Below are positions 8,336 through 19,508 of a stretch of 32,000 nt of DNA, piece by piece. Source of the DNA: Thermodesulfobacteriota bacterium (GTDB lineage Bacteria > Desulfobacterota > WTBG01 > JAGOGO01); the NCBI GenBank assembly GCA_026625185.1, contig CP113000.1, forward strand, positions 975,622 to 1,007,621, given 5' to 3'. Position numbers and translations under genes: made by a program. The notes beneath the pieces are model-generated. The model was given only the letters and a program-made list of their open reading frames with translations. It made no database searches and was not told where the DNA came from. Each line of letters begins with the position of its first letter. The stretch's first letter is position 1.

Positions 8336-8623
8336 ACAAAAGGTTTCGCCTTTTATACCACAGGTTTTTCTCAAATGCAAACCAGGCATTCAAAAAACAG
8401 GTGGTATCTTTGTAAAAACCGATAGAAAACCTTTAACGTTTCTTGTTTTTTGCAAGCGCAAGTAGTATGAAATTTTTTAAAAAAGACAAGATGTTATGCA
8501 ATGCAAAGGTAATATAAATAAATTTCTGAATGTCTTTAAGCTCCATCGAACTCAAAATGGAGGGGCAGTTCACTTGGTCTCATATAATGATGACCAAAAA
8601 GATCTGATTCGAAATTGAGAATC

Positions 8624-9202
8624 TCATATTGATTTTATATAAAATCGAGACCACAAAATAATCAATAAAATTCCTATGGTAACATAAATGATATAGAAAA
8701 TGCCCTTAGGCTTTTTAAACTTTATTTTTGACACAAAAAGAAATGCCAGAAGAACCATCGACGCCCTAGTAATCCAGACAACAATTTGCAGTCCAAGAAA
8801 AAAGTAAGAAATTAGAATTAGGGGTAGGAAAAGCGAGACAAATGTCACGGGAATACCCATGAAATATTTTTTCTCTGATGGGAGGGTGTTAAAGACTGCA
8901 AGGCGCCAGATTGCACAACTTACATAAATTAATGTTATAAGGGTATCAATTATTATATTTCCCCCCAAGTTAATAAGAATGAATACCGGGAGAATTCCAA
9001 AACTCACAACATCTATCAAACTGTCCAGTTCTTTTCCAATTGCACTGTTATGAACATTGATCTTTCGTGCAACGTATCCATCAAAAAGATCACATATGCC
9101 CGCTGCAATCAGGCATAAAATTGATAGCATCCAATCCCTATGTGCAAGTATCACCCCTAATAGTGCACAATAGAGTCCTATGAAAGAAATAATGTTTGCC
9201 AT
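8624..9202 (-). CDS. CDP-alcohol phosphatidyltransferase (PssA-like small type)
   Basis: DLFDGYVARK(x9)GKELDSLIDVVS matches the D-x2-D-G-x2-A-R...G-x3-D-x3-D signature, with a spacer one residue longer than the textbook 8. GKELDSL resembles Bacillus-type phosphatidylserine synthase. Polytopic, 192 aa. Headgroup specificity is not inferable. Confidence 0.8.
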   Translation of the reverse strand: MANIISFIGLYCALLGVILAHRDWMLSILCLIAAGICDLFDGYVARKINVHNSAIGKELDSLIDVVSFGILPVFILINLGGNIIIDTLITLIYVSCAIWRLAVFNTLPSEKKYFMGIPVTFVSLFLPLILISYFFLGLQIVVWITRASMVLLAFLFVSKIKFKKPKGIFYIIYVTIGILLIILWSRFYIKSI

Positions 9203-9204
9203 AT

Positions 9205-9528
9205 CTATCTTTCTTCAGCTTCTGAAGCGAATGTCCGGGCCTCAATTTCAAAAGGTATTTCACGAAATGCAGTGGATAATTTTCTATATTTAATTAAATT
9301 CTTTATACCATAATAAATATAATGCATTAACACAATAACCGTACCGTATTTTTTAAATTGAGCAAGGTGCAGAAATTCATGTCTTGAAATTTTGCCTTTG
9401 TAACCCCGACAATATATTGATTTCCCAACCACGATGTATTCAATATTCATTTTCTGCGGGAACCAGTGCTTTTCTTTAACATTGAAGTCGACACCTTCTT
9501 TAAGGTAAATATTATATTTTGATTTCAT
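9205..9528 (-). CDS. small HExxH (zincin-like, DUF4157-like) protein
   Basis: 107 aa. VVGKSIYCRGYKGKISRHEFLHLAQF followed by EIEAR resembles the HExxHxxQ ... ExEA pattern of DUF4157-type minimal metallopeptidase domains. The start shares 1 nt with the upstream stop (TAATG). Confidence 0.4.
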   Translation of the reverse strand: MKSKYNIYLKEGVDFNVKEKHWFPQKMNIEYIVVGKSIYCRGYKGKISRHEFLHLAQFKKYGTVIVLMHYIYYGIKNLIKYRKLSTAFREIPFEIEARTFASEAEER

Positions 9529-10802
9529 TATTCAGCCTTGTAGGTAGTGTCTCTTTGTCTTATTCCCATTCTTTTAAAAATATCTATTGGCTCCATTTTT
9601 GTTACTTCCTGCCATAATGCAAATGTTCTATATTTGGGTAAAGGAAGAAAAGGTGAATTATTAATAGCGTCACTAAGTACATGTACAAGGCACTCTCTGA
9701 CCGGATGCCTGCAATATGGAATAAATTCATTCCAGATCGTCCTAAACCTTTGCTGCATTATATTTCCTATAGCTGTTTTCAAAAGTACGCAGGGTTGAAC
9801 ATTGCCTTGTGCATCAATGTATACATTCTGACCTGAGGTGGCCATACAACCAAAGTTATAGGGTTCTTCATTATACCAAGGCATTACAATGGCTATCTTT
9901 CGTTTGCTCCTGTTTTGTATTTTATAATAGTCAATCAATAATTGCTTATCTTCTTTAGTGAGAAAAATAGTCTTATCTCCTGATTCTTTGGCTCTTCCAA
10001 CCGGTCTGATTTCATTGATTTGAATTGAATGAGCCCCCAATGATTCGGCAAAATCAACCATCTTGAAAATGTCCCCTGAGTTGACCATCCCGCTTGTTGT
10101 GCAGCATACAACGGAATTATAGATACCCAGCGCAGAGGATTCTTTTATTGCTTCACAAGCGCTTTTAAAGGCAATGTTATTTTTCCGCTGCTGATTGTGT
10201 ATTCTTTCATCATAATGATCGAGGCTTATACATATACCCTCAAGTCCTGCCATTTTGAGAATCTTTAATCGCCTGTTGTCTGCCCCAACACCTGAAGTGA
10301 AGATCCTGGTATCCATATGATCTCTTGTGTACCTGATAAACTCCGTGAGATCATCAAAGCGACAAAGGGGCTCTCCACCTACAAAAAACATAACAGTAAA
10401 ATCAGACTTAATTATATCATCAATCGTTTCAAAAATTTTTTCTTTGGGTAAATCCTTATGAATATCCTGAGTATTTTTTACGTGACAATGAAAACAATTG
10501 TTTGGGCATATGTTAGTTATGGATATCTGAGCATGGTTCGGCTTTAAAGGATACTGGTCCACACTGTTGTTATCAAGCATTTTATCATATCGAGGGCCGG
10601 GAAAGTATGGCGCAAATGGGTCAATGAAGTACTTGCTGGCTACTTTTGAATATTTGGTGTCTTTAAAAAGGGAAGATATTATCACTTGTTTTTTGAGCAC
10701 ATAGAGGAACCTGCGGACAGATATTCTACAAGACAGTAGCTTTAAAAGATTGTGCCTTAATACATACCACATCAACCTTGCTTTAAATAACGTCCTTTTC
10801 AT
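9528..10802 (-). CDS. radical SAM enzyme with partial SPASM/twitch-like C-terminal motif
   Basis: CPNNCFHC (C-x3-C-x2-C) at about residue 99. C-terminal C-x13-G-x4-C (CMATSGQNVYIDAQGNVQPC) followed by C-x6-C. About 85 aa of basic N-terminal extension precede the core. Confidence 0.85.
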   Translation of the reverse strand: MKRTLFKARLMWYVLRHNLLKLLSCRISVRRFLYVLKKQVIISSLFKDTKYSKVASKYFIDPFAPYFPGPRYDKMLDNNSVDQYPLKPNHAQISITNICPNNCFHCHVKNTQDIHKDLPKEKIFETIDDIIKSDFTVMFFVGGEPLCRFDDLTEFIRYTRDHMDTRIFTSGVGADNRRLKILKMAGLEGICISLDHYDERIHNQQRKNNIAFKSACEAIKESSALGIYNSVVCCTTSGMVNSGDIFKMVDFAESLGAHSIQINEIRPVGRAKESGDKTIFLTKEDKQLLIDYYKIQNRSKRKIAIVMPWYNEEPYNFGCMATSGQNVYIDAQGNVQPCVLLKTAIGNIMQQRFRTIWNEFIPYCRHPVRECLVHVLSDAINNSPFLPLPKYRTFALWQEVTKMEPIDIFKRMGIRQRDTTYKAE

Positions 10803-11866
10803 ATCGCCATAGGTTCCGTTGTTTTAGTTGTATTCATTCTCCTACCGAAATTCTGTTTTGTTGCAAAGTCCAGCAAGTCGTGTATCCACTGTTCTGTAAT
10901 TTCCTCAGGAGCTTCATACTCCATACCCAACCGTCTTACTGTTGAGGATACATCAAACATTTCTTCCTGTGTAAGATAAGGCAAGAAAATACGTGTTTGC
11001 TTATCGAAAAGCTTCTGCAAATATCCAGTTCCATTGTCTTTTTTTATCGGCAAACTACTTGAACAATCGAAATAATTGATTCCATTTATGTTCATATAAT
11101 CGAATATTAGTTTTAATACCCACGATGTTAAAGGTGGCGCAGGATGGGTGATATAATATATCTCTCCAAATGTGCCGAGACCAATTAGGGAAAGCAACTG
11201 GGAGACGACCCAGTCAACAGGCACAATATTTATTGTGGATGTGGATGAACATGGTACTGAGATAGGTAGTTTCACTGGGTTGGAAATTTTTTTTCTCTGG
11301 CGTAGACTTTTGGCTATGAAATATGGAACCATAGCATATCCGTAAAATCCATTAAAACCGTTAATAGCACAGCTCTTTCTTTCGCCAACGATGACTCCCA
11401 GACGATATATATTGTACGTTAGCCCTGAATTCATCACTAATTTTTCAGCAGCGGACTTACTTATTTCATAGGGGTTTCTCTGAAATGGGGCATAGGCAGT
11501 TGAAATGAAATGCAGATCTGGGATATTAAGAGTTTTTGATAGATTTATTATCCTTTCAGTTCCGCCCTTATTTATATTCCAGGTACGCTTATAGTATTTA
11601 TCGTCAAATTTCACAGCGCTTGCGCAATGTAATACCATATCTATATCGACTGACTTAAGAATGGAAAGGCTTGAATCTGAAAGGCCCAGGTTTTCTTTTT
11701 CAAGGTCGCCTTCAAATAGGTGATCCGGGGGAACGCCAAAACCGAAAAATTTGTCAAACCTTTGCTTGACATTACGAACCAGGGCGTATACTTCATGATG
11801 TAATAATAAAGATGAAATAAGGTGACTCCCCAAGATACCTGTCATTCCGGTCAACAATATCTTCAT
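10799..11866 (-). CDS. extended SDR, thioester-reductase / fatty-acyl reductase-like (NAD_binding_4-like)
   Basis: MKILLTGMTGILGSHL (TGxTGxxG), HCASAVKF, and YEISKSAAE (Y-x3-K with the SK..AE context seen in terminal reductase domains). 4-nt overlap with the next gene. Confidence 0.65.
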   Translation of the reverse strand: MKILLTGMTGILGSHLISSLLLHHEVYALVRNVKQRFDKFFGFGVPPDHLFEGDLEKENLGLSDSSLSILKSVDIDMVLHCASAVKFDDKYYKRTWNINKGGTERIINLSKTLNIPDLHFISTAYAPFQRNPYEISKSAAEKLVMNSGLTYNIYRLGVIVGERKSCAINGFNGFYGYAMVPYFIAKSLRQRKKISNPVKLPISVPCSSTSTINIVPVDWVVSQLLSLIGLGTFGEIYYITHPAPPLTSWVLKLIFDYMNINGINYFDCSSSLPIKKDNGTGYLQKLFDKQTRIFLPYLTQEEMFDVSSTVRRLGMEYEAPEEITEQWIHDLLDFATKQNFGRRMNTTKTTEPMAI

Positions 11867-11868
11867 GT

Positions 11869-12666
11869 TTATCCTGCCTCGTAAAGAGTGAACATGATAA
11901 CCGCCACCGGTCCAAGAATAATCATGCTGTCTAATCGATCCAGCATCCCTCCTTGGGCGCCCATGATCTGTGAAAAATCCTTTATTCCAATCCTCCTCTT
12001 TAGAACACTTGAGCTGGCGTCTCCAATAAATCCACAGGTAAATATAACAACAGCATTCAACAAAATAAGGTAAAAAGGCAGACTGCTCAGATTAAAAACG
12101 TGATAGAAGCTTATCGAAGCTAAAATGCTGAATATGAATCCTCCTATAAATCCGCTCCAGGTCTTGTTGGGGCTGACCAGAGGAAATAGTCGTGGTCCTT
12201 TTAAGCTTTCTCCAACTACCTGCGAAAAAGTGTCGGACACTGACAACACAAAGAGCAAAAATATTAATATTTTATAATTTATCAAAAAGGATAAGTAGAT
12301 ATAACTGGATGCAGCGATAACCGCTATGACTATGCCGGATGCAATCCCGATCGTCTTTTTTAAAGATCCGAAGGTGCTTTCTGCTATTTGATAGATAAAC
12401 TCAAAAAGAGCAACGCTGAATATGGCTATAATAAAAATTATGTAAAAATTCCTGAAGAATATTATGGAAAAGATCATAATCAATTGAAAAGCAAGATACC
12501 TTTTAAGCTTTGCTTTTAATGAGCCTTTGCCACCCTTTTCCAAGGCTAATATATTAAGGTAACTTTCTGCAAACCATCTCAGCCCTTTACTTATGAGAAA
12601 AGCTCCGACAGTCCAGGTAAAAAGAAATAGAAGATAATAAAATAAAAAATGTATTTTATAATCCAT
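11869..12666 (-). CDS. phosphatidate cytidylyltransferase family protein (CdsA-like, variant signature)
   Basis: SPNKTWSGFIGG and SVLKRRIGIKDFSQIMGAQGGMLDRLDS match the CdsA signature as I recall it, except Q where H-G-G normally has His. Polytopic membrane protein. Confidence 0.8.
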   Translation of the reverse strand: MDYKIHFLFYYLLFLFTWTVGAFLISKGLRWFAESYLNILALEKGGKGSLKAKLKRYLAFQLIMIFSIIFFRNFYIIFIIAIFSVALFEFIYQIAESTFGSLKKTIGIASGIVIAVIAASSYIYLSFLINYKILIFLLFVLSVSDTFSQVVGESLKGPRLFPLVSPNKTWSGFIGGFIFSILASISFYHVFNLSSLPFYLILLNAVVIFTCGFIGDASSSVLKRRIGIKDFSQIMGAQGGMLDRLDSMIILGPVAVIMFTLYEAG

Positions 12667-13570
12667 TGAACTTTTCCGGCACCCTCATATTAAGCGCTCC
12701 CTTGTGGCAGCAAAGGTCCCAATGTTCCGATTCAGGGATAACTTCACCATCCCCAAAGGCTGGTACTCTTTTATTATAATAAATACTTATCTTATTGACT
12801 TCCTGCCTACACTGATATCTGTCTTTACTACTGAGTCCCATCTTAATCTTTAATAGGGAATACAGCACAGATTGACAACTGGGATTTTTAAAGAGCAAGA
12901 AATGAAACAATCCATCCGTGGCTTTGGTTCCTGGTGCGACAACGATATTCTTGCCTATGCTTGCTTGGTTTGTAAAAACGCAGGCATGGCTTATATAGTC
13001 CCGAACATCTTCATTATCTGTTATCCTAAAAGAACATGTATTGTTACGAGCAAAAATGGAATGCCACACGAGCAACAGTGAGTATATTTTGTCTCCGGTA
13101 AGCTTCATGAGTAAGGTCCACTTGTGTGATTTCTTTAAACGGTTTGCATTGTCTGCCACCAAAAAGCCCAGGCCAAAGCCCCCTCCAGATACAACATGCC
13201 GTCCATTAGCACTAATGGTGTCATATTTGATTGTTTTTCCATTTTCCAATTGATCCAATGATTTTAAAGGATTCAAAAACAAACCGACCCAGCGGGCAAA
13301 ATCATTGGCGGTACCTGCGGGCACAAGGTTAATTTCTACCGGTTTATTTATTAGATGCTGAATCGTGTGATGTAATGTTCCATCTCCTCCAATAATCAAT
13401 ACCTTACTTACCTCATCTAAAAAGGTGAGCCATCCCGGGCAAGAGATATCTTTGGGTTGCAGAGAATAAAATATCACATCTCCCCAATGTAAGCGTCCTT
13501 TAAGACGGTTTGCGATATCTATGTTCTTAACCGAGCTTACAGCAAGATTATATAAACACAATGTTCGCAT
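12656..13570 (-). CDS. lipid kinase, diacylglycerol-kinase catalytic domain family (YegS/LCB5-like)
   Basis: IIGGDGTLHHTI and PAGTANDFAR motifs. 304 aa, soluble. Confidence 0.8.
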   Translation of the reverse strand: MRTLCLYNLAVSSVKNIDIANRLKGRLHWGDVIFYSLQPKDISCPGWLTFLDEVSKVLIIGGDGTLHHTIQHLINKPVEINLVPAGTANDFARWVGLFLNPLKSLDQLENGKTIKYDTISANGRHVVSGGGFGLGFLVADNANRLKKSHKWTLLMKLTGDKIYSLLLVWHSIFARNNTCSFRITDNEDVRDYISHACVFTNQASIGKNIVVAPGTKATDGLFHFLLFKNPSCQSVLYSLLKIKMGLSSKDRYQCRQEVNKISIYYNKRVPAFGDGEVIPESEHWDLCCHKGALNMRVPEKFNGL

Positions 13571-13588
13571 ACGATTAAGTCTAAAAAT

Positions 13589-14536
13589 TTATACTTTTTT
13601 TAGAATCACGGTTTGCATCGATAAGTTAAGATATTTTTCAAACAGCAGAAAAGGTGCCAGAAATAGTTGCCCGGTAAAATACGGCAAAATTGCCTTCTTC
13701 AAAGTCAAGCCTTTGCCCTTAAGCATCTTGAATGCTGCTCCCGCAAATAGATAGAAATAGGCCGGAAAGGCCCCGTAGGCAAGATAATCTACAAGATCGA
13801 ACCCCTCTTTCTTCACTATTTCGAGAAGATGTTTTTTTGAATACAATACTGTGTGTTGTGGTGACTGAACGCCCGGCCAGCGCGATCCGTAAAGTTTGTA
13901 GGTAAGGCTGTCAAGTCTGGGTACTTCAATAATAAGAATTCCTTTATCCTTCAAGCATTCTTGCGCTTTTTGAAGAGATTCCCGTGGGCGGTAGTCATGC
14001 TCGAGGAAATGCCACATGGTAATTAGGTCATACGAATACGCAGGTAATTTCTGTTCATAAAAAAGGCCCAGATGAAAATCAATCTCATTGAAACCTGGGT
14101 AATATGTGGTATCCTTGAAATCAACACCAACAATACTGCAATGGTATGTTTTTTTTAACAGGAGGAGAAATGTTCCAACAGAACATCCCACATCAAGCAC
14201 ACATGAGTCGGAATTTAGTCTAACATAAGGTTCAATAAGCTTGATTTTGTCCCTATCGTGTTTTCCCATCGCCCAGCTATATAAAGGACTCAAAGGACCT
14301 AATTTTTCATTCTTACGATGGGCAATATAATCGTCCGTATAAAAACGTTTAACCTCATCGATACTTAACCTTGGATTCTGATATATCAAACCGCAAGAAC
14401 GACATCTGACGAAAATAAACCTACCCGGCATGCCTGTTAAATCATCCTCAGCAGTCAAAAAATAATCGGATTCAGTGCTTCCACATAGGTAGCAACAAAT
14501 ATTTTCTGTTTTATAATCTAGTATTAATTTTTTCAT
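13589..14536 (-). CDS. class I SAM-dependent methyltransferase with N-terminal Cys4 zinc ribbon
   Basis: CYLCGS...CRSCGL ribbon, then motif I VLDVGCSVGTF and an acidic post-I loop (GVDF). Confidence 0.75.
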   Translation of the reverse strand: MKKLILDYKTENICCYLCGSTESDYFLTAEDDLTGMPGRFIFVRCRSCGLIYQNPRLSIDEVKRFYTDDYIAHRKNEKLGPLSPLYSWAMGKHDRDKIKLIEPYVRLNSDSCVLDVGCSVGTFLLLLKKTYHCSIVGVDFKDTTYYPGFNEIDFHLGLFYEQKLPAYSYDLITMWHFLEHDYRPRESLQKAQECLKDKGILIIEVPRLDSLTYKLYGSRWPGVQSPQHTVLYSKKHLLEIVKKEGFDLVDYLAYGAFPAYFYLFAGAAFKMLKGKGLTLKKAILPYFTGQLFLAPFLLFEKYLNLSMQTVILKKV

Positions 14537-14549
14537 TATTTCCCGTTAT

Positions 14550-15335
14550 TCAGCCCGATATAGCCAACAAACACAGATATATCACTCCATTGGTAAAAGG
14601 TATAAACTTAAGATTTCGAACCCTTTCATATTTTATTGTCAAGAAAAATAAAGCTATGCAAAGGGATAGGAGACCCCATTTTATCCACTCAGAGGGGTTA
14701 CCGTGGTAATTTAGAATTATATGAGAGGCAAAGCCAATCGACAGGAACAACCAGGCGATAAAACCAGCTTTTAAATAATTCATGTCCGAGAGGTGCTCCC
14801 GGTCATGAAAGGTTTCATAAACGAAGAGAATTAAGTAAATGATTATTAGTGGTAATATTTTTTCTCTAAAAGGTGCGCTTTCAGAAGAAGTAATAAAAGC
14901 AATTACCGGATATTTTATCAGGATAAAAAGGTCGAACATGAGAGGATGCAGTTTCTCTCGTAGAAAATAGATAAGCATAAAGAACAGTGCAAAAATAAAA
15001 GCAATTATCAGTATGGAGATATTATGTAATTTATAAATTATGAAAAAAGACATAAGGAATATAATAAATAACCACTTCCAGAGAATTAATGCATTACCAG
15101 GATTGACGGTAACCCTGTTCGGTGAAGTCTTTCGATCTTTCTTGATTGAGCAGAGATCATCCCAGAGGCGCAATCCCAAAAGCAGCAACAATGCGGAAGC
15201 AAACCTTACAAAAATATCAAATTTATTAGTAAGATGTTGAATAGAAGTTTCGCTACCTATTGATAGAAGAATTCCTAACGGGATAAAGAGGAAAAGATTG
15301 AATCGTTCTTTAAAATATTGAACTATAAGAATCAT
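14550..15335 (-). CDS. polytopic membrane protein, possible divergent UbiA-superfamily member
   Basis: About 8 hydrophobic segments. RLWDDLCSIKKDRKTSPNRVTVNPG sits where UbiA enzymes carry NDxxDxxxD...R.xNRPLxxG, with Ser in place of the middle Asp. A second acidic patch is YETFHDREHLSD. Confidence 0.35.
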   Translation of the reverse strand: MILIVQYFKERFNLFLFIPLGILLSIGSETSIQHLTNKFDIFVRFASALLLLLGLRLWDDLCSIKKDRKTSPNRVTVNPGNALILWKWLFIIFLMSFFIIYKLHNISILIIAFIFALFFMLIYFLREKLHPLMFDLFILIKYPVIAFITSSESAPFREKILPLIIIYLILFVYETFHDREHLSDMNYLKAGFIAWLFLSIGFASHIILNYHGNPSEWIKWGLLSLCIALFFLTIKYERVRNLKFIPFTNGVIYLCLLAISG

Positions 15336-17998
15336 ATTACCTCTTCAAGAAAAACAACCGATCTATCTGCATCAAGCAAAACCCGCTGACCGTCTATTAA
15401 TCTGGTTGTAGCATCCTTTACTCCCACCAAGGTCGGAATCCCATATTCTCTGGCAATTATAGCCCCGTGAGAAAGCATCCCTCCTCTTTCAAGAATAAGT
15501 CCAGAAATTATTGGAAATGCTGGTGCCCAGCCAGGGTCGGTTTGCTTGGTCACAAGTATATCTCCCTTCTCAATCAAACCAATGGATGTTATGTCTTTAA
15601 CAATCCTTGTCCTTCCTATAACCCTGCCCTCACAGGCGCTGTACCCGGTTAAGAAACATTTTTCTATTTCCGGAACTTTCCCGATCTCCAAGGGATTGTT
15701 CTTTTCGGAGGAATAGTACTCTCCTGCAGGCAGGCGAAAACTTTCCGGCGGGGACGATTTCACATCATCTGAATATTTATTCTTCCTCTGTCTGATGACC
15801 TCCCTTATCAGAACCGGAAGGTGACATGCCGACAGATTTTCTATTTCAGAGTATTTTAAGAACAGGGCATCTTCAGCATTCTGAATAAGATGCTTTTTCT
15901 TGAAAATGGTGCCCAAGGCAAGCAAAGAATGTCTGCACTGGTTATAAAGCCTGGCTTGTTTCAATCTCACCCTTTCCCGGTATCTGATACCTTGATGTGC
16001 CAAAAAGATTGAGAACCTGATAATTATTTTGCGATATAATCCTGTTAACACCCCACAGTCTTTCCCAGCGTGTTCCAGTATCTGCTTGGTAACTTCAATC
16101 CTTCTATGGATCTGCGTTTTTAATTGTTCCTCCGGTGAGTGAAAAGGATTTTTCAAATAGCTTTTGAGAAGATCTATTAGTTTCTCTGGTGCTTCATTAT
16201 AATCCGCACGCGTTAAAAGTAATTCCCCTGAAATACGGTATCCCCATTTCTTCTGATACTCCACAAAGGCTCTGTGAAAATCATCGAACTCTTCCCCTTG
16301 AGTCAACACAGACATTATGTTTTTAGGATCATTTTCACCAAATAACCTATATAAACCGTAATTGTTCTTGATCATTTGGGTGAGCTCCCAAAATCTCTGA
16401 GGCGGCTCATGACTCACCAGATTTGGTATTCCAACGAGCAATTGATGAACATTTGTTGATCGTGATCGGGCGTATGTCTCCACAGAAGAACGAAGTAAAC
16501 CATACCCGAACATGGCAAGAGCGTCCGCAAGAGAGGCGTCTTTCCACTTATGCATACGAATATGAATAAAATTCATAATATCTGTTTTATATCTGTTTAC
16601 GTCATGCTCCTTCTCAGGGGAATTGCATTCTTTAAAATGAATGTCGGCTTGTTTTTCAAACCTTTTAACATATAGGGGAAGACACAAAATATGTTTTAAG
16701 GACCGAGAACCAAGCTTGAAAAAATAAAGGTATCTTGCCGGCCTGTTTTTTGACAGAAATTTATCCGGCAAATTATCATAGGGCAGGTCATATATCCCTA
16801 TAAAAGAATCCCAGTATTTCTTGGCAAGATCGGGAAAAGGCAATGCACTCAGACATTCATAAATATTGGTAAGATTATAGTACATTCTACTTTGATGGAA
16901 ATCGATTATGGTTTCAAAGGCTGGCTCTAACTTTTTGCGGACCTTGCGACTGACCCCAAGCAATCTAGCCAAATTTCTGAAATAGTGATAATATCCATTT
17001 TTTGCAAACGACATAAGAAATGGAGTAAGCGCTTCAGGAAAATTTTCATTCACATTAACATTGGACCATAAACAAGACGCATCGTTTTTCTGATTCTGCG
17101 CGGTTACCGGCCTGGATTGAAGTAACCATAACTTTTTTGATTTATCAATGGTCCACTCTATATCTTGTTGCCTTCCGGTATTCTGTTTAGCATCTTTGGC
17201 GATAGCAACAAGATTCTTAATATTCGCAATCTGAGTGTCGAGAAAACCATTTCCGTTGTTTCCCGCAGAAGAACCGGCAATTCTCAATCCCGCAGCTTCA
17301 TCATAAATCAGAATCTGCTCAGGGTTTTCCCTTCCGCCTACAAGCTGTTCTCCGGCGCCCCTGACATATTCGAGTACTAATGGTTTATTTCCGTCCTTCC
17401 GGATCTGGGAGAGAGGATGGGTGGTAAATAACACACCTGAAAATTCCGACTGAATATAAGGTTGCACGATAACCGACATGCCGCCTAAAATTGTGTTACG
17501 GTTACACTGATAACTGATGCTTTTTGATTTCCAATAAGACATCCAGCACTGAAGAAGAGCGTCATGACAGGCGCTCTCGAATTTCTTTTTACTGTCCGTT
17601 ACTGCAGAATCTAGTTGCCCCGCAAAGGAGTTCTCGTTGGAGTCCTCTCCAATGGCTGAGCTACGGAATATCAATTCTGATTTTCCAAACACTTTTTTGA
17701 TGGCTTCATAAATATCACTGAATAACGAACTCTCAATTCCTTTCTTGAGAAGAGCATCACACAATTTTTCAGAATACCTCATGACTGAGCGGATGTCATT
17801 CAAATTTTCATCATTGTCATGAACCTCGGCAAGAGCCTTCTTTGAATAATCCTCAAAGGCCTGTGTACCAATTATCAATGTCTTGGGTATAGATATTCCC
17901 ATCCTATTTAAGGTGTATAATGACTCTGCTTTTCCACCTGTTATGTGGGACGATTTTACCTTTGAGAGAGGAAAAGAATATTTGATTTTTTTATTCAT
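15332..17998 (-). CDS. PEP-utilising-enzyme family phosphotransferase with rifampin-phosphotransferase-like architecture
   Basis: N-terminal PPDK_N-type ATP-grasp (GGKAESLYTL...QDIEWTIDK..LWLLQSRPVT), about 450 aa of helical middle region, and a C-terminal swivel domain (TDPGWAPAF...ERGGMLSHGAIIAREYGIPTLVG). Start moved to MNKKIKYSF (ATG at 17998), which overlaps the upstream stop as ATGAATAA. Confidence 0.75.
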   Translation of the reverse strand: MNKKIKYSFPLSKVKSSHITGGKAESLYTLNRMGISIPKTLIIGTQAFEDYSKKALAEVHDNDENLNDIRSVMRYSEKLCDALLKKGIESSLFSDIYEAIKKVFGKSELIFRSSAIGEDSNENSFAGQLDSAVTDSKKKFESACHDALLQCWMSYWKSKSISYQCNRNTILGGMSVIVQPYIQSEFSGVLFTTHPLSQIRKDGNKPLVLEYVRGAGEQLVGGRENPEQILIYDEAAGLRIAGSSAGNNGNGFLDTQIANIKNLVAIAKDAKQNTGRQQDIEWTIDKSKKLWLLQSRPVTAQNQKNDASCLWSNVNVNENFPEALTPFLMSFAKNGYYHYFRNLARLLGVSRKVRKKLEPAFETIIDFHQSRMYYNLTNIYECLSALPFPDLAKKYWDSFIGIYDLPYDNLPDKFLSKNRPARYLYFFKLGSRSLKHILCLPLYVKRFEKQADIHFKECNSPEKEHDVNRYKTDIMNFIHIRMHKWKDASLADALAMFGYGLLRSSVETYARSRSTNVHQLLVGIPNLVSHEPPQRFWELTQMIKNNYGLYRLFGENDPKNIMSVLTQGEEFDDFHRAFVEYQKKWGYRISGELLLTRADYNEAPEKLIDLLKSYLKNPFHSPEEQLKTQIHRRIEVTKQILEHAGKDCGVLTGLYRKIIIRFSIFLAHQGIRYRERVRLKQARLYNQCRHSLLALGTIFKKKHLIQNAEDALFLKYSEIENLSACHLPVLIREVIRQRKNKYSDDVKSSPPESFRLPAGEYYSSEKNNPLEIGKVPEIEKCFLTGYSACEGRVIGRTRIVKDITSIGLIEKGDILVTKQTDPGWAPAFPIISGLILERGGMLSHGAIIAREYGIPTLVGVKDATTRLIDGQRVLLDADRSVVFLEEVI

Positions 17999-18767
17999 AT
18001 GAAACATTGTGCATCTTGTTATGAAACTCAACAAAAATATCCCTTACCATTTTCCTGTTCTTATCAAGATCATCAAGAACCCATTTGCTGGTCTCTACTT
18101 CCGGCAGAATGTAAACATCCACATGGCCACCCAAAGTCCTATAACCCCTACCCGGATCTATTTCCGATGGTATGTAAATATAAATCGGAACAATTGGTAC
18201 CTTCATATTGGTCGCTAGGTGAAACGCACCTTTATTGAATTTTGATATTCTTCCCGTTGTGGTAACTGCGCCTTCAGGAGAAAGGATCACAGACTCTCCG
18301 GTCTTACGCAATTTGACTTCTGCACGTTTAAAACATTCAGTCCTCTTTCTTGGTTTGTGTTGCTGGTCAATCAGAAATGTCCCGATAAAAAAGTTTATTA
18401 TGGTGACGGGAATATATTTATAGGTCGCTTTTGACATAAAGTACCGCGTATTATTGAAGCCGATCGCCGGTAAGAGCACCACATCAATAGTGGAGGTGTG
18501 ATTAATCACATATATTTTCTGTGAATTTGACAAATCGTCCTGATGATGAACGGTATAGGTAATGCCAAACATCCGCAAAATCATCGCGCAACCGGGACGG
18601 ACAATATACCGGCAACATATATTTCTTAGCTTAAAAAAGGTGCTGATTTGAAAAATTGCAACGATAAAGGCAGTGATAAACAATACGGTTACTGCTGAGG
18701 GAATAAGGATCAGCAAACGCACAGGGAATTTTCTCTTTGCTTTTTTATCAGGCTTTGCAGCGATCAT
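17991..18767 (-). CDS. lysophospholipid/glycerol-3-phosphate acyltransferase family (PlsC-like) with N-terminal TM anchor
   Basis: NHTSTID (H-x4-D) and SPEGAVTTTG (PEG block). GGGAG lies 8 nt upstream of the ATG. First gene of the ten-gene unit. Confidence 0.8.
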   Translation of the reverse strand: MIAAKPDKKAKRKFPVRLLILIPSAVTVLFITAFIVAIFQISTFFKLRNICCRYIVRPGCAMILRMFGITYTVHHQDDLSNSQKIYVINHTSTIDVVLLPAIGFNNTRYFMSKATYKYIPVTIINFFIGTFLIDQQHKPRKRTECFKRAEVKLRKTGESVILSPEGAVTTTGRISKFNKGAFHLATNMKVPIVPIYIYIPSEIDPGRGYRTLGGHVDVYILPEVETSKWVLDDLDKNRKMVRDIFVEFHNKMHNVSYE

Positions 18768-19040
18768 AAATCGCTCCCGTGAAACAGGTGTGTCTCATAC
18801 CCATTTTGCATCAAGGTCGTCAGTTAACTATTTGACAGAGTCCCCCTCGCTGGATATTGGCGGCAAAGTTCTCGGTTACCCTAATAATATATCTTCCCCA
18901 AAAATTACCACTGCCACCTCTGTATTTCAACGAAAATATTGTGCTCATCATTTACATCAAAAAATTTGCCGGTATGGTTACAGGGGCATTATTGAAAAGA
19001 TGGAGGCATTCTGTCTGTCGCTTTAATGCAAATTAATTAC

Positions 19041-19118
19041 TTAGTCATTTTCAGCAAATTTCTAGGTATTTTATATCATAAATACCACCTTTATTCTGCT
19101 TGCGCACAAAATCGCACC
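19041..19118. repeat. repeat A, copy 1 (~80 bp, near identical to 25389-25468)
   Basis: TTAGTCATTTTCAGCAAATTTCTAGGTATTTTATATCATAAATACCACCTTTATTCTGCTTGCGCACAAAATCGCACC. It differs from copy 2 by two substitutions and a 2-nt A-run length change, by eye. Confidence 0.9.
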
Positions 19119-19245
19119 ACCGTTAAAAAGAACTAGAAACCATGTTAATATGGCAACCCTTTTTTAACCGAAACATTCTTATATCCTTTCCTCCGCAAGA
19201 TTCCGGATAATTCTTCTTAACCTGAACTATCCAACGGTTAAACAG

Positions 19246-19261
19246 TGCAATGGCCGTGCCA
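19246..19261 (-). promoter_or_regulatory. sigma-54 (-24/-12) promoter, copy 1
   Basis: The minus strand reads TGGCACGGCCATTGCA, a perfect TGGCAC-N5-TTGC(A) element. Confidence 0.7.
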
Positions 19262-19278
19262 GGGCGCGGAGATATTTA

Positions 19279-19291
19279 TAACTAATTGATT
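19279..19291 (-). promoter_or_regulatory. IHF-like site, copy 1
   Basis: The minus strand reads AATCAATTAGTTA, which fits WATCAANNNNTTR. It lies 17 nt upstream of the -24 element. Confidence 0.35.
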
Positions 19292-19369
19292 ATTAATTAT
19301 TTTATGCAAAAACTCGAATTAGGCTTTGAAAAGGAGGGGAATTTTAATGTTCACAAAAAGCACTATGCT

Positions 19370-19386
19370 TATACAAAAAATGTATA
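19370..19386. promoter_or_regulatory. palindromic upstream activator site candidate, copy 1
   Basis: TATACA-AAAAA-TGTATA. Its centre lies about 119 bp upstream of the -24 GG. Confidence 0.55.
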
Positions 19387-19508
19387 GCTATGAGGTGTTT
19401 TCTGAAGGGAGTCGCCCGGTATTTTTAAGCAGGGTTCACGGGGCAGGGAAGACTGAGGAGGGCATACCAAAAGCAAAATGAGGATTTTTAGCTTTACCGC
19501 TTGCTCCC

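What the first reader, a model, noticed from the sequence alone, without database searches (positions are those of the whole stretch)
15332..17998. Rifampin-phosphotransferase-like dikinase embedded in a lipid operon
Seen: an 889-aa protein with an N-terminal PPDK_N-type ATP-grasp, a ~450-aa helical central region and a C-terminal swivel His domain (GGMLSHGAIIAREYGIPTLVG). It is translationally coupled on both sides (ATGAATAA overlap at 17991-17998, ATGA-type overlap at 15332-15335).

Established: this three-part architecture is that of rifampin phosphotransferase and YvkC-like enzymes. They phosphorylate a hydroxyl of a bulky hydrophobic small molecule via a phospho-His intermediate, with the central domain holding the substrate.

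Inference: here the substrate is probably a lipid or lipid headgroup hydroxyl. The operon would then have a second phosphorylating enzyme, mechanistically unrelated to its DAGK-type kinase. That is unusual for lipid pathways.
Basis: partly seen in the sequence, partly recalled or inferred. Interest (0 to 1): 0.6.

Follow-up and report, generated by a model that had tools for sequence, protein, structure and literature searches.

The report
Dikinase partnered with UbiA-like lipid transferase
This gene encodes an ATP-driven phosphate-transfer enzyme shaped like the rifampicin-inactivating kinase; its relatives in about ten phyla are always encoded just upstream of a membrane enzyme resembling the archaeal ether-lipid synthase, so it probably activates a fatty-alcohol-derived lipid for an undescribed, possibly ether-forming membrane-lipid pathway.

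Summary
An intact 888-aa protein (15332-17998, minus strand) has a PPDK_N ATP-grasp, a helical central domain of about 470 aa and a C-terminal swivel-His domain (His844). It overlaps both neighbouring genes. Its best structural match is Listeria rifampin phosphotransferase (RPH), and the RPH second-transfer residues Arg-Glu(-Lys) are kept as R674-E675-R678. It falls far below the curated cut-offs for RPH, PigC/RedH and PEP synthase, and it has no PEP/pyruvate TIM barrel.

The unannotated 261-aa downstream protein is a divergent UbiA-fold transferase whose top structural match is archaeal DGGGP synthase. This dikinase-then-UbiA-like order held in every related locus with readable downstream sequence (45 genome, 64 metagenome, 4 more). 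Most of these loci belong to a conserved cluster of thioester reductase plus kinase, CarS/CdsA-like protein, methyltransferase, PlsC-type acyltransferase, desaturase or radical SAM, and CDP-alcohol transferase.

My reading is that the dikinase phosphorylates a fatty-alcohol-derived lipid, most likely its monophosphate, to make the leaving group used by the UbiA-like enzyme. That step is inferred, not shown. I found no paper on this pairing. Earlier agents in this scan described the same cassette on other DNA. Here it looks like a low-GC acquired island.

The parts
15332..17998 (-). RPH-type three-domain dikinase (DIK), 888 aa
   Evidence: Pfam PPDK_N plus PEP-utilizers. Best NCBIfam model NF004881 scores 411 bits against a cut-off of 883. 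Listeria RPH is the top PDB hit by sequence (E 2e-48) and by fold (Foldseek E 3e-38). AF2 model pLDDT 85.7.
17078..17944 (-). DIK ATP-grasp (PPDK_N) domain, residues 19-307
   Evidence: K23 and R112 are invariant in the 23-sequence alignment. They align with RPH Lys22 and Arg117, the ATP-phosphate ligands.
15659..17077 (-). DIK helical central (substrate-binding) domain, residues ~308-780
   Evidence: Helical in the model. Its C-terminal half aligns with the RPH RIF-binding domain. R674-E675-R678 align with RPH R666-E667-K670 and are invariant in the family. Residues specific to the UbiA-partnered clade: N313, N319, Y336, Y339, Y374, F399, E448, R481, D492, R676, Q681, Y685.
15362..15574 (-). 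DIK swivel phosphohistidine domain, residues 809-879; His844 codon at 15467-15469
   Evidence: Pfam PEP-utilizers E 1e-24. H844 aligns with RPH His825. Sequence read.
14550..15335 (-). Divergent UbiA-fold membrane transferase (MEM), 261 aa, start overlaps the DIK stop
   Evidence: No Pfam hit. AF2 pLDDT 85. Foldseek top hit is DGGGP synthase 6m31/7bpu (E 5e-5, TM 0.65), followed by UbiA homologues. VIA-align over all PDB representatives: 6m31 Z 17.5 with 256 of 261 residues aligned, and the top five are all UbiA superfamily. hhalign against UbiA proteins gives 96% probability, E 1.6e-9. Motif WDDLCSIKKDRKTSPNRV corresponds to the family consensus DDLxDxxxDRxxHPxR.
17991..18767 (-). PlsC-type acyltransferase (AT)
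   Evidence: Pfam PF01553 E 9e-19. An HX4D motif, NHTSTID, is visible in the translation. About 40% identical orthologues sit in the same cluster in 31 of 46 genome loci.
13589..14536 (-). Class I SAM methyltransferase with N-terminal Cys4 ribbon (MT)
   Evidence: Methyltransf_23 E 3e-20. It is the most conserved cluster member, at 50-61% identity across phyla. No informative PDB relative.
12656..13570 (-). YegS/DAGK_cat-type lipid kinase
   Evidence: Pfam DAGK_cat plus YegS_C; TIGR00147 82 bits, below its cut-off. It plays the kinase role that an APH domain fused to the reductase plays in most loci. DAGK-type variants also occur in L007, L010, L020, L023 and L045.
11869..12666 (-). CdsA-family cytidylyltransferase-like membrane protein
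   Evidence: CTP_transf_1 E 3e-33. A CarS/CdsA-like gene is present in 41 of 46 genome loci and lies directly upstream of the dikinase in 52 of 59 metagenome loci with room.
10799..11866 (-). Stand-alone NAD_binding_4 (fatty-acyl/thioester reductase-type) SDR
   Evidence: PF07993 E 4e-31. It corresponds to the reductase domain of the ACP-reductase-APH proteins of the common cluster form.
9528..10802 (-). Radical SAM/SPASM enzyme
   Evidence: Pfam Radical_SAM plus SPASM. Orthologues of 52% and 46% identity lie in the cluster in L026 and L033, which like this window lack the FA_desaturase gene of the common form.
9205..9528 (-). 107-aa protein with an HExxH-like motif; accessory to the radical SAM enzyme
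   Evidence: No Pfam hit. Its homologue is fused in frame to the radical SAM protein in L026 (ORF 723-2333).
8624..9202 (-). CDP-alcohol phosphatidyltransferase, serine-synthase-like
   Evidence: PF01066 E 9e-15. It scores equally on the pssA and archaetidylserine synthase models (E 4e-24, below cut-offs). A homologue is present in 20 of 46 genome loci.

Best explanation
The gene encodes a functional RPH-type dikinase of a distinct, uncharacterised clade. This clade works as a pair with the UbiA-fold membrane transferase encoded immediately downstream. The pair sits inside a widespread bacterial lipid-biosynthesis cluster.

Mechanism. Shown by homology: ATP binds the N-terminal ATP-grasp. His844 on the C-terminal swivel domain takes the beta-phosphate, probably by way of a pyrophosphoryl-His as in RPH. 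The swivel domain then carries the phosphate to the helical central domain, where R674-E675-R678 position it for transfer to the bound acceptor.

Inferred from context: the acceptor is the fatty-alcohol-derived lipid made by the cluster's thioester reductase, here the stand-alone NAD_binding_4 protein. The most likely acceptor is its monophosphate, made by the accompanying kinase (here DAGK-type, elsewhere an APH domain fused to the reductase). The dikinase would then yield an alkyl diphosphate, or at least a phosphorylated, activated alkyl donor.

The UbiA-like enzyme would transfer the alkyl group to a glycerol-phosphate-type acceptor, forming an ether bond. The PlsC-type acyltransferase would add an acyl chain. 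The CdsA/CarS-like enzyme would make the CDP-activated lipid. The CDP-alcohol transferase would add a serine-like head group. The methyltransferase and the radical SAM enzyme (an FA_desaturase in the aerobic form of the cluster) would tailor the product.
For: 1. The catalytic apparatus is intact. PPDK_N and swivel domains are present. H844 aligns with RPH H825, R674/E675/R678 with RPH R666/E667/K670, and K23/R112 with RPH K22/R117. All are invariant in 23 homologues. The RPH residues were shown by mutagenesis to be needed for the two half-reactions (PMC4844700).

2. The fold is RPH-like end to end.

3. The neighbour has a UbiA fold, with DGGGP synthase as top hit in two independent structure searches, in a profile search and by hhalign. 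In distant variants (L040) that position holds a protein passing Pfam's UbiA threshold.

4. The UbiA-like gene lies directly downstream of the dikinase in 45 of 45 genome loci that are complete there. The same holds in 64 of 64 metagenome loci with room and in 4 further genomes, two of which were found starting from the UbiA-like protein. The UbiA-like gene is single-copy in 5 of 5 genomes checked. RPH-like proteins at or below 26% identity lack it.

5. The clusters pair a thioester reductase with a kinase: ACP-NAD_binding_4-APH or HMGR-like-APH fusions. FAAL, CarS-like, PlsC-type acyltransferase and CDP-alcohol transferase genes are also common. HMGR-like enzymes have been shown to be fatty acyl-CoA reductases that make fatty alcohols (PMC11948995).

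6. Known UbiA-superfamily enzymes, including all those among the structural hits, use diphosphate donors (prenyl-PP or PRPP; established knowledge). A kinase plus the dikinase gives the two phosphorylations needed. L008 lacks the other kinase and instead has two dikinase paralogues in tandem.

7. PigC/HapC show that RPH-like enzymes can phosphorylate a substrate purely to make a leaving group (PMC13534948).

8. The UbiA-partnered clade has extra conserved basic residues in the central domain: R481, R676, and R678 at 100%. This fits an anionic acceptor.
Against: No member of the cluster has been studied, and the product lipid is unknown.

No dikinase is known to phosphorylate a fatty alcohol or a phosphate monoester.

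Known UbiA enzymes use allylic or anomeric diphosphates. A saturated alkyl diphosphate is a much poorer electrophile.

The second Asp-rich motif of the UbiA-like family is weakly conserved. In this window the middle Asp of the first motif is Ser.

The order of the phosphotransfer steps cannot be fixed from sequence. The dikinase could act on the alcohol, while the DAGK/APH kinase acts on a later diradylglycerol. The CdsA/CarS-like protein could be a CTP-dependent alcohol kinase, as dolichol and phytol kinases are (from memory).

Confidence: 0.55

Rival explanations
1. Terminal decoration. The dikinase adds a phosphate to a free hydroxyl of an otherwise finished lipid or head group (for example a glycerol, inositol or hydroxy-acyl OH). 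The phosphate stays in the product.
For: The known chemistry of RPH is OH to O-phosphate with retention of the phosphate (PMC4844700); so, from memory, is that of YvkC, phenylphosphate synthase and glucan water dikinase. The lipid cluster context fits. The extra basic residues would also fit an anionic phospholipid substrate.
Against: It does not explain why the dikinase is always immediately upstream of, and often overlapping, a UbiA-fold transferase. It also does not explain why minimal variants keep just reductase-kinase, dikinase, UbiA and head-group enzymes (L040/L042). A decoration enzyme would be expected to be the most dispensable member, not part of the invariant core.
Confidence: 0.2
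2. Carbonyl or enol activation, in the style of PEP synthase and PigC. The reductase stops at the fatty aldehyde. The dikinase phosphorylates its enol oxygen to give a 1-alkenyl phosphate. The UbiA-like enzyme transfers the alkenyl group to a glycerol hydroxyl with loss of phosphate, giving a vinyl ether (plasmalogen-type) directly. This is analogous to enolpyruvyl transfer from PEP.
For: PEP synthase (enolate oxygen) and PigC/HapC (an aldehyde-derived oxygen, with phosphate as leaving group) are both relatives. NAD_binding_4 reductases can release aldehydes (established knowledge). A monophosphate donor would fit the weak second Asp-rich motif of the UbiA-like family.
Against: It gives no role to the kinase that is fused to the reductase in most loci. 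No such alkenyl-phosphate chemistry is known. HMGR-like/FcrA-type reductases carry out four-electron reduction to the alcohol.
Confidence: 0.1
3. Isoprenoid rather than fatty donor. The dikinase (re)phosphorylates a polyprenyl or phytanyl-type phosphate to the diphosphate used by the UbiA-like prenyltransferase, in the way VTE5/VTE6 salvage phytol in plants. The fatty-acyl reductase branch would feed another part of the molecule.
For: All characterised UbiA-superfamily lipid donors are isoprenoid diphosphates, and the best structural match is DGGGP synthase. A CdsA/CarS-family protein, the family that includes polyprenol kinases (from memory), is nearly always adjacent. Earlier unchecked notes of this scan describe CPR versions that have no reductase.
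Against: Reductase-kinase fusions and FAAL genes dominate the clusters. No prenyl-diphosphate synthase was seen in the conserved gene set.
Confidence: 0.1
4. It is an ordinary rifamycin-resistance phosphotransferase or a housekeeping PEP synthase/PPDK that happens to lie among lipid genes.
For: Database names given to homologues include 'rifampicin phosphotransferase' and 'pyruvate, water dikinase'. RPH is the closest solved structure.
Against: The RPH equivalog model scores 228 bits against a cut-off of 999. PEP synthase TIGR01418 scores 195 against 740, and PPDK 51 against 843. There is no PEP-utilizers_C TIM barrel. The N-terminal half of the central domain does not align with the RPH rifampin-binding domain by sequence. 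The operon context is conserved and translationally coupled. The genome has two other dikinase-like genes with the PEP-synthase domain order elsewhere.
Confidence: 0.02

Closest known systems
Rifampin phosphotransferase RPH-Lm (Listeria monocytogenes; PDB 5FBS/5FBT/5FBU, 5HV1)
   Same: Same three-domain order: ATP-grasp, helical substrate domain, C-terminal swivel His. It is the best PDB match by sequence (E 2e-48) and by fold (E 3e-38). The catalytic His and the Arg-Glu(-Lys/Arg) phosphate-transfer residues are conserved.
   Different: About 21% identity. It scores 228 bits against 999 on the RPH equivalog model. The first ~220 residues of the central domain do not align by sequence. It is always paired with a UbiA-like gene in a lipid cluster and is not a stand-alone resistance gene.
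Prodigiosin/undecylprodigiosin ligases PigC, HapC and RedH
   Same: Same architecture. They give the precedent for phosphorylating a substrate only to create a leaving group for a later bond-forming step.
   Different: It scores 230-233 bits against cut-offs of 1300-1350. There are no pig/red genes nearby. In PigC the condensation takes place inside the same enzyme, whereas here a separate membrane transferase is the likely second catalyst.
PEP synthase and pyruvate phosphate dikinase
   Same: Homologous ATP-grasp and phosphohistidine domains. Dikinase chemistry: ATP gives AMP, with the beta-phosphate going to the acceptor.
   Different: No PEP/pyruvate TIM-barrel domain. The His domain is C-terminal rather than central. 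Scores are far below the cut-offs.
Late archaeal phospholipid pathway: DGGGP synthase (UbiA family), then CarS, then archaetidylserine synthase
   Same: The partner protein's best structural match is DGGGP synthase. The clusters carry a CarS-like or CdsA-like gene and a CDP-alcohol transferase that scores as well on archaetidylserine synthase as on PssA. L040 also has a PS decarboxylase.
   Different: The hosts are bacteria. The chain source appears to be reduced fatty acid (FAAL, ACP, reductase) rather than GGPP. A dikinase and a PlsC-type acyltransferase are present, and archaea have neither in this pathway. No GGGP synthase or G1P dehydrogenase was seen.
Myxococcus xanthus elbB-elbE ether-lipid cluster (ElbD: acyl-CoA synthetase/ligase-type domain, ACP, reductase, AGPAT)
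   Same: The same building blocks for turning a fatty acid into a fatty alcohol and adding an acyl chain (acyl-activating ligase, ACP, NAD_binding_4 reductase, PlsC-type acyltransferase), which are tied to ether lipids there (PMC9131029).
   Different: The elb cluster has no dikinase, UbiA-like, CarS-like or methyltransferase gene. The sponge-symbiont elb survey does not mention pyruvate, PEP or rifampicin-type (dikinase-like) enzymes or a methyltransferase.
Phytol salvage in plants and cyanobacteria: VTE5 (CdsA-family phytol kinase), VTE6 (phytyl-phosphate kinase), then UbiA-type VTE2/ChlG (from memory)
   Same: The logic of lipid alcohol to monophosphate to diphosphate to UbiA-type transferase, with a CdsA-superfamily protein in the pathway.
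   Different: The second kinase there is a DUF92/COG1836 protein, not a dikinase. The donors are isoprenoid and the acceptors aromatic or tetrapyrrole.

Membership tests
RPH-like three-domain dikinase superfamily (RPH, PigC/RedH, YvkC-type) | N-terminal PPDK_N ATP-grasp with the ATP-phosphate ligands | tested here: met
   PF01326 E 5e-43, residues 19-307. K23 and R112 are invariant and align with RPH K22 and R117.
RPH-like three-domain dikinase superfamily (RPH, PigC/RedH, YvkC-type) | C-terminal (not central) swivel phosphohistidine domain with the catalytic His | tested here: met
   PF00391 at residues 809-879. H844 aligns with RPH H825. Motif read.
RPH-like three-domain dikinase superfamily (RPH, PigC/RedH, YvkC-type) | Helical central substrate domain carrying the Arg-Glu dyad for the second phosphotransfer | tested here: met
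   R674-E675 align with RPH R666-E667 and are invariant. The full-length fold matches 5hv1. The role of the dyad is from PMC4844700.
Rifamycin-inactivating phosphotransferase (RPH orthologue, NF041857) | Score at or above the curated equivalog cut-off | tested here: not met
   228 bits against a cut-off of 999. NF000283 scores 134 against 1700.
Rifamycin-inactivating phosphotransferase (RPH orthologue, NF041857) | Conserved rifampin-contacting pocket | tested here: inconclusive
   Residues ~302-523 gave no sequence alignment to RPH. Pocket geometry could not be inspected because no coordinates are available.
Rifamycin-inactivating phosphotransferase (RPH orthologue, NF041857) | Phosphorylates rifamycins | not testable with these tools
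   Needs an in vitro assay.
PEP synthase / pyruvate phosphate dikinase | C-terminal PEP/pyruvate-binding TIM barrel (PEP-utilizers_C) | tested here: not met
   No PF02896 hit at E <= 0.01. TIGR01418 scores 195 against 740 and TIGR01828 scores 51 against 843.
Prodigiosin ligase PigC/RedH | Score at or above the curated cut-off | tested here: not met
   PigC scores 230 against 1300 and RedH 233 against 1350. No pyrrole-pathway genes were found among the window's operon genes scanned or in the recurrent gene set of related loci.
NCBIfam NF004881 (PRK06241.2-2, named 'phosphoenolpyruvate synthase') | Score at or above the curated cut-off | tested here: not met
   411 bits against 883, although the alignment runs end to end. 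Five other UbiA-partnered dikinases score 358-512, also below the cut-off.
UbiA superfamily (for the partner protein 14550-15335) | UbiA-type helical-bundle membrane fold | tested here: met
   Foldseek: 6m31 E 5e-5, TM 0.65. VIA-align: 6m31 Z 17.5, 4od4 Z 16.1, 8j8j Z 14.6, UBIAD1 Z 13.9, 4tq3 Z 13.1, all above the unrelated helical proteins.
UbiA superfamily (for the partner protein 14550-15335) | First Asp-rich motif (NDxxDxxxD followed by R..P) | tested here: met
   The family consensus DDLxDxxxDRxxHPxR aligns with DGGGPS NDIFDIEIDRINKPSR. D59, D60, D67, P72 and R74 are invariant. In this window the middle Asp is Ser.
UbiA superfamily (for the partner protein 14550-15335) | Second Asp-rich motif | tested here: inconclusive
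   Only a majority YExxHD is present, and it is absent in several members.
UbiA superfamily (for the partner protein 14550-15335) | Pfam PF01040 gathering threshold | tested here: not met
   The window protein has no hit. The family HMM does hit the PF01040-positive protein of L040 (E 7e-17), and hhalign against UbiA proteins gives 96% probability. It is therefore a divergent branch rather than a canonical member.

The most novel reading that the evidence does not exclude
The dikinase converts a fatty-acid-derived alkyl phosphate into a non-isoprenoid alkyl diphosphate. That would be the first dikinase acting on a phosphate monoester. The divergent UbiA-fold enzyme then uses the alkyl diphosphate to make glycerol ether bonds. 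This would be a third, archaeal-style route to bacterial ether phospholipids, distinct from AGPS/ElbD and from PlsAR/Ger. It would occur in soil Acidobacteriota, Gemmatimonadota, Planctomycetota and others. In this anaerobe it would be oxygen-independent, with a radical SAM enzyme in place of the desaturase.
Probability: 0.3. Interest if true: 0.85.

Novelty: new variant of a known kind. Interest (0 to 1): 0.68.

Why it matters
How bacteria that lack the AGPS/Elb or PlsAR/Ger systems make ether-linked or other alkyl lipids is unresolved. That bears on the sources of soil and sediment ether-lipid biomarkers and on the 'lipid divide' between bacteria and archaea.

This cluster joins bacterial fatty-acid parts (FAAL, ACP, reductase, PlsC) to archaeal-looking parts (DGGGPS-like, CarS-like and archaetidylserine-synthase-like enzymes) through an RPH-type dikinase. 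That gives a concrete, testable pathway.

It would also extend the RPH/PigC enzyme class to lipid activation. It shows too that database names such as 'rifampicin phosphotransferase' and 'PEP synthase' on hundreds of such genes are probably wrong, which matters for resistance-gene surveys of soil metagenomes.

Tried and rejected
The contexts of the closest homologues (P0002-P0008, 42-74% identity) could therefore not be read.
- Single-sequence search for related loci found nothing in genome contigs or in metagenome contigs. The alignment-based scans did work, but they returned only relatives at 38% identity or less.
- A search for fused forms of 1555 aa or more found none (weak evidence). All 150 best UbiA-like relatives are 177-346 aa, so none is a dikinase fusion.
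- Eight literature searches found no paper on a dikinase-UbiA lipid cluster. The library holds open-access papers only.
- The elb cluster was considered as an identity and rejected, because it has no dikinase, UbiA-like or CarS-like gene.
- PDB sequence searches with the methyltransferase and the radical SAM enzyme gave no functional clue.
- The promoter and terminator scan was no better than shuffled sequence. There is no tRNA in the window to mark an integration site.
- Analysis of the central-domain pocket was not possible, because model coordinates are not exposed to scripts.
- Membership of the HMGR-like fusions in the FcrA clade was not tested. Some of them lack the N-terminal extension described for FcrA.

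Full report
**1. The observation**

The minus-strand ORF ending at 15332 is real and intact.
- From the ATG at 17998 it encodes 888 aa. An in-frame ATG at 18007 would give 891 aa, which is the length of the identical database representative P0001.
- Pfam places a PPDK_N ATP-grasp at residues 19-307 (E 5e-43) and the mobile PEP-utilizers domain at 809-879 (E 1e-24).
- The AlphaFold2 model (pLDDT 85.7, pTM 0.85) shows an almost purely helical region between them.
- The quoted GGMLSHGAIIA motif is present, and the His844 codon is 15467-15469.
- Both overlaps are as described. ATGAATAA at 17998-17991 overlaps the acyltransferase stop. ATGA at 15335-15332 overlaps the next gene's start.
- The ten genes from 18767 to 8624 are separated by at most 18 nt or overlap.

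**2. What the protein is**

Listeria rifampin phosphotransferase (RPH) is the closest solved structure.
- By sequence it is the top hit (5fbs/5hv1, E 2e-48), and by fold as well (Foldseek E 3e-38, alignment over the whole length).
- His844 aligns with the phosphate-carrying His825 of RPH.
- R674-E675-R678 align with RPH R666-E667-K670. Stogios et al. showed by mutagenesis that R666 and E667 are essential for the second phosphotransfer (PMC4844700).
- These residues, together with K23 and R112 of the ATP site, are invariant in 23 homologues at 34-74% identity.

It is nevertheless not an orthologue of any characterised member.
- The RPH equivalog model gives 228 bits against a cut-off of 999.
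- PigC gives 230 against 1300, and RedH 233 against 1350.
- PEP synthase gives 195 against 740.
- The best model, NF004881 (named 'phosphoenolpyruvate synthase'), gives 411 against 883. Five other members of the clade also fail that cut-off.
- The genome has two other dikinase-like genes with the PEP-synthase domain order elsewhere.

**3. The neighbour is the key**

The 261-aa protein whose start overlaps the dikinase stop (14550-15335) has no Pfam hit. Several lines place it in the UbiA superfamily.
- Its model (pLDDT 85) matches archaeal digeranylgeranylglyceryl-phosphate synthase best in Foldseek (6m31/7bpu, E 5e-5, TM 0.65), followed by UbiA homologues.
- An independent all-against-all VIA-align search gives 6m31 Z 17.5 with 256 of 261 residues aligned. 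The top five hits are all UbiA-superfamily enzymes.
- A profile of 16 family members has 6m31 as its best PDB sequence hit, over the first Asp-rich motif.
- hhalign against UbiA proteins gives 96% probability.
- The family motif (W/F)DDLxDxxxDRxxHPxR mirrors NDxxDxxxDR..P.R of DGGGPS.

It is a divergent branch of that superfamily.
- The second Asp-rich motif is weak, and in this window the middle Asp of the first motif is Ser.
- An exhaustive HMMER search finds 1480 representatives at 50% identity (414 at E <= 1e-30), and the 150 best listed are 177-346 aa.

**4. Conservation of the pair and of the cluster**

The order dikinase then UbiA-like gene held wherever it could be read.
- All 46 genome loci whose dikinase is at least 27-28% identical were checked. 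45 have the UbiA-like gene directly downstream, and the remaining one ends at a contig edge.
- In an independent set of metagenome contigs the figure is 64 of 64 with room.
- Two Acidobacteriota genomes found by searching with the UbiA-like profile show the same order. So do two genomes from the window's own phylum.
- In five genomes the UbiA-like gene is single-copy and is the one beside the dikinase.
- RPH-like proteins at 23-26% identity (Nitrospira, Anaerolineae and others) lack it.
- In the distant variants L040 and L042 the same position holds a protein that passes Pfam's UbiA threshold.

The common form of the cluster, in order, is as follows:
- CDP-alcohol transferase (optional)
- FA_desaturase (optional)
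- CarS-like protein
- dikinase
- UbiA-like protein
- methyltransferase
- PlsC-type acyltransferase
- FAAL (optional)
- ACP-NAD_binding_4-APH kinase fusion

Flavobacteriales and some Desulfobacterales have an HMG-CoA-reductase-like-APH fusion instead. HMGR-like enzymes of this general kind have been shown to be fatty acyl-CoA reductases that make fatty alcohols (Grossi et al. 2025, PMC11948995). I did not test whether these particular fusions belong to that clade.

Counts over the 46 genome loci:
- CarS/CdsA-like gene: 41
- reductase: 36
- APH or DAGK kinase: 36 (most of the rest lie on contigs that end nearby)
- methyltransferase: 33
- acyltransferase: 31
- desaturase: 29

L008 lacks the other kinase and instead has two dikinase paralogues in tandem.

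**5. This window's version**

The operon keeps the same functions, with several replacements.
- A DAGK_cat/YegS kinase stands in for the APH domain, as also in L007, L010, L020, L023 and L045.
- A CdsA-type protein stands in for the CarS-type protein.
- The reductase is stand-alone, with no ACP or FAAL.
- A radical SAM/SPASM enzyme plus a 107-aa partner stand where aerobes have the O2-dependent desaturase. L026 and L033 share this feature (52% and 46% identity), and in L026 the two proteins are fused. This looks like an oxygen-independent substitute, which is sensible in an anaerobe, but that is an inference.

The block has 36-40% G+C against 45-48% in the flanks. The dikinase was not found in the 3 same-genus genomes, the 4 same-family genomes or the 33 same-class genomes searched. 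It was found in only 2 of 400 other sampled genomes of the phylum. The cluster is also sparse in Acidobacteriota, at 3 of 201 genomes. A patchy, horizontally spread cassette is the simplest reading.

**6. Mechanism**

Shown by homology: ATP passes a phosphate to His844, which passes it to an acceptor held in the central domain, with R674 and E675 organising the transfer.

Inferred:
- The acceptor is the cluster's own lipid, and the purpose is activation for the UbiA-like transferase.
- Known UbiA-superfamily enzymes use diphosphate donors (established knowledge; all the structural hits are of this kind).
- The clusters supply a reductase that should give a fatty alcohol, one conventional kinase, and the dikinase. 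Those are exactly two phosphorylations.
- PigC/HapC show that this enzyme class can phosphorylate solely to make a leaving group (PMC13534948).
- The UbiA-partnered clade has its own central-domain signature, including the extra basic residues R481 and R676, with R678 at 100% against 48% in unpartnered relatives. This fits a phosphate-bearing acceptor but does not prove one.

I therefore favour the sequence alkyl phosphate to alkyl diphosphate, followed by ether formation, acylation, CDP activation and head-group addition. That sequence parallels the archaeal DGGGPS, CarS and archaetidylserine synthase steps.

Weak points:
- A saturated alkyl diphosphate is a poor electrophile.
- No dikinase is known to act on a phosphate monoester.
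- The order of the three phosphotransfer-type enzymes cannot be fixed from sequence.

The rivals are terminal decoration, enol-phosphate or vinyl-ether chemistry, and an isoprenoid donor. Each is listed with the test that would refute it.

**7. Novelty**

I found no paper on this pairing or this cluster in the open-access library. The Myxococcus elb cluster shares only the fatty-alcohol and acyltransferase parts. Earlier agents in this scan reported the same cassette on other DNA, in CPR bacteria, Bacteroidota, Clostridia and others, and also found no description of it. Those are unchecked AI notes that agree with what I derived here.

The enzyme is a new clade of a known enzyme class with a new, conserved functional partner.

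Noticed in passing
window 9205-9528 and 9528-10802; L026:723-2333: The 107-aa protein after the radical SAM gene carries an HExxH-like motif (RHEFLHLAQ). In the Gammaproteobacteria MAG locus L026 its homologue is fused in frame to the C-terminus of the orthologous radical SAM/SPASM enzyme. The two probably act as one unit.
   Followed up: partly
window 9528-10802 versus L005:8300-9301 and equivalents: Clusters carry either an FA_desaturase-family gene (29 of 46 genome loci) or the radical SAM enzyme (the window, L026, L033), never both. This suggests an O2-dependent and an O2-independent way of doing the same tailoring step.
   Followed up: partly
window ~8600-19500: The lipid operon has 36-40% G+C against 45-48% on both sides. 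Its dikinase was not found in any of the 7 same-genus or same-family genomes searched. It is probably a horizontally acquired island. There is no tRNA in the window.
   Followed up: partly
G000:C1:~694600-697900 (L003/L004) and ~710600-714600 (L002): Two paralogous proteins of 864 and 858 aa lie about 16 kb apart. Each has a ~130-aa N-terminal extension, then PPDK_N, then a central swivel domain, followed by ~300 C-terminal residues with no PEP-utilizers_C hit at E <= 1e-4. They are PEP-synthase-like in domain order but may not be ordinary PEP synthases.
   Followed up: no
L008:1450-11794 (Desulfobacterales MAG): A variant context: a 982-aa protein with a class-III aminotransferase domain, two tandem dikinase paralogues (877 and 889 aa) separated by a CarS-like 228-aa gene, then the UbiA-like gene and a ThiF-family gene. 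There is no reductase-kinase here.
   Followed up: no
L040:140-7914 and L042: A compact form of the pathway in Desulfobacterales MAGs: HMGR-like-APH fusion, dikinase, a Pfam-positive UbiA protein, a phosphatidylserine decarboxylase (L040; L042 instead shows a CDP-alcohol-transferase-like match at this position) and a small CarS/CdsA-like protein. The decarboxylase suggests an ethanolamine-type head group for that variant.
   Followed up: partly
L014:12522-13333: In the Pyrinomonadaceae MAG the UbiA-like gene is split over two reading frames. This is either a frameshift or an assembly error.
   Followed up: no
window 17996-18034: There are three possible starts for the dikinase: TTG at 18034, ATG at 18007 and ATG at 17998. 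None has an obvious Shine-Dalgarno sequence. The public gene call uses 18007 (891 aa).
   Followed up: partly
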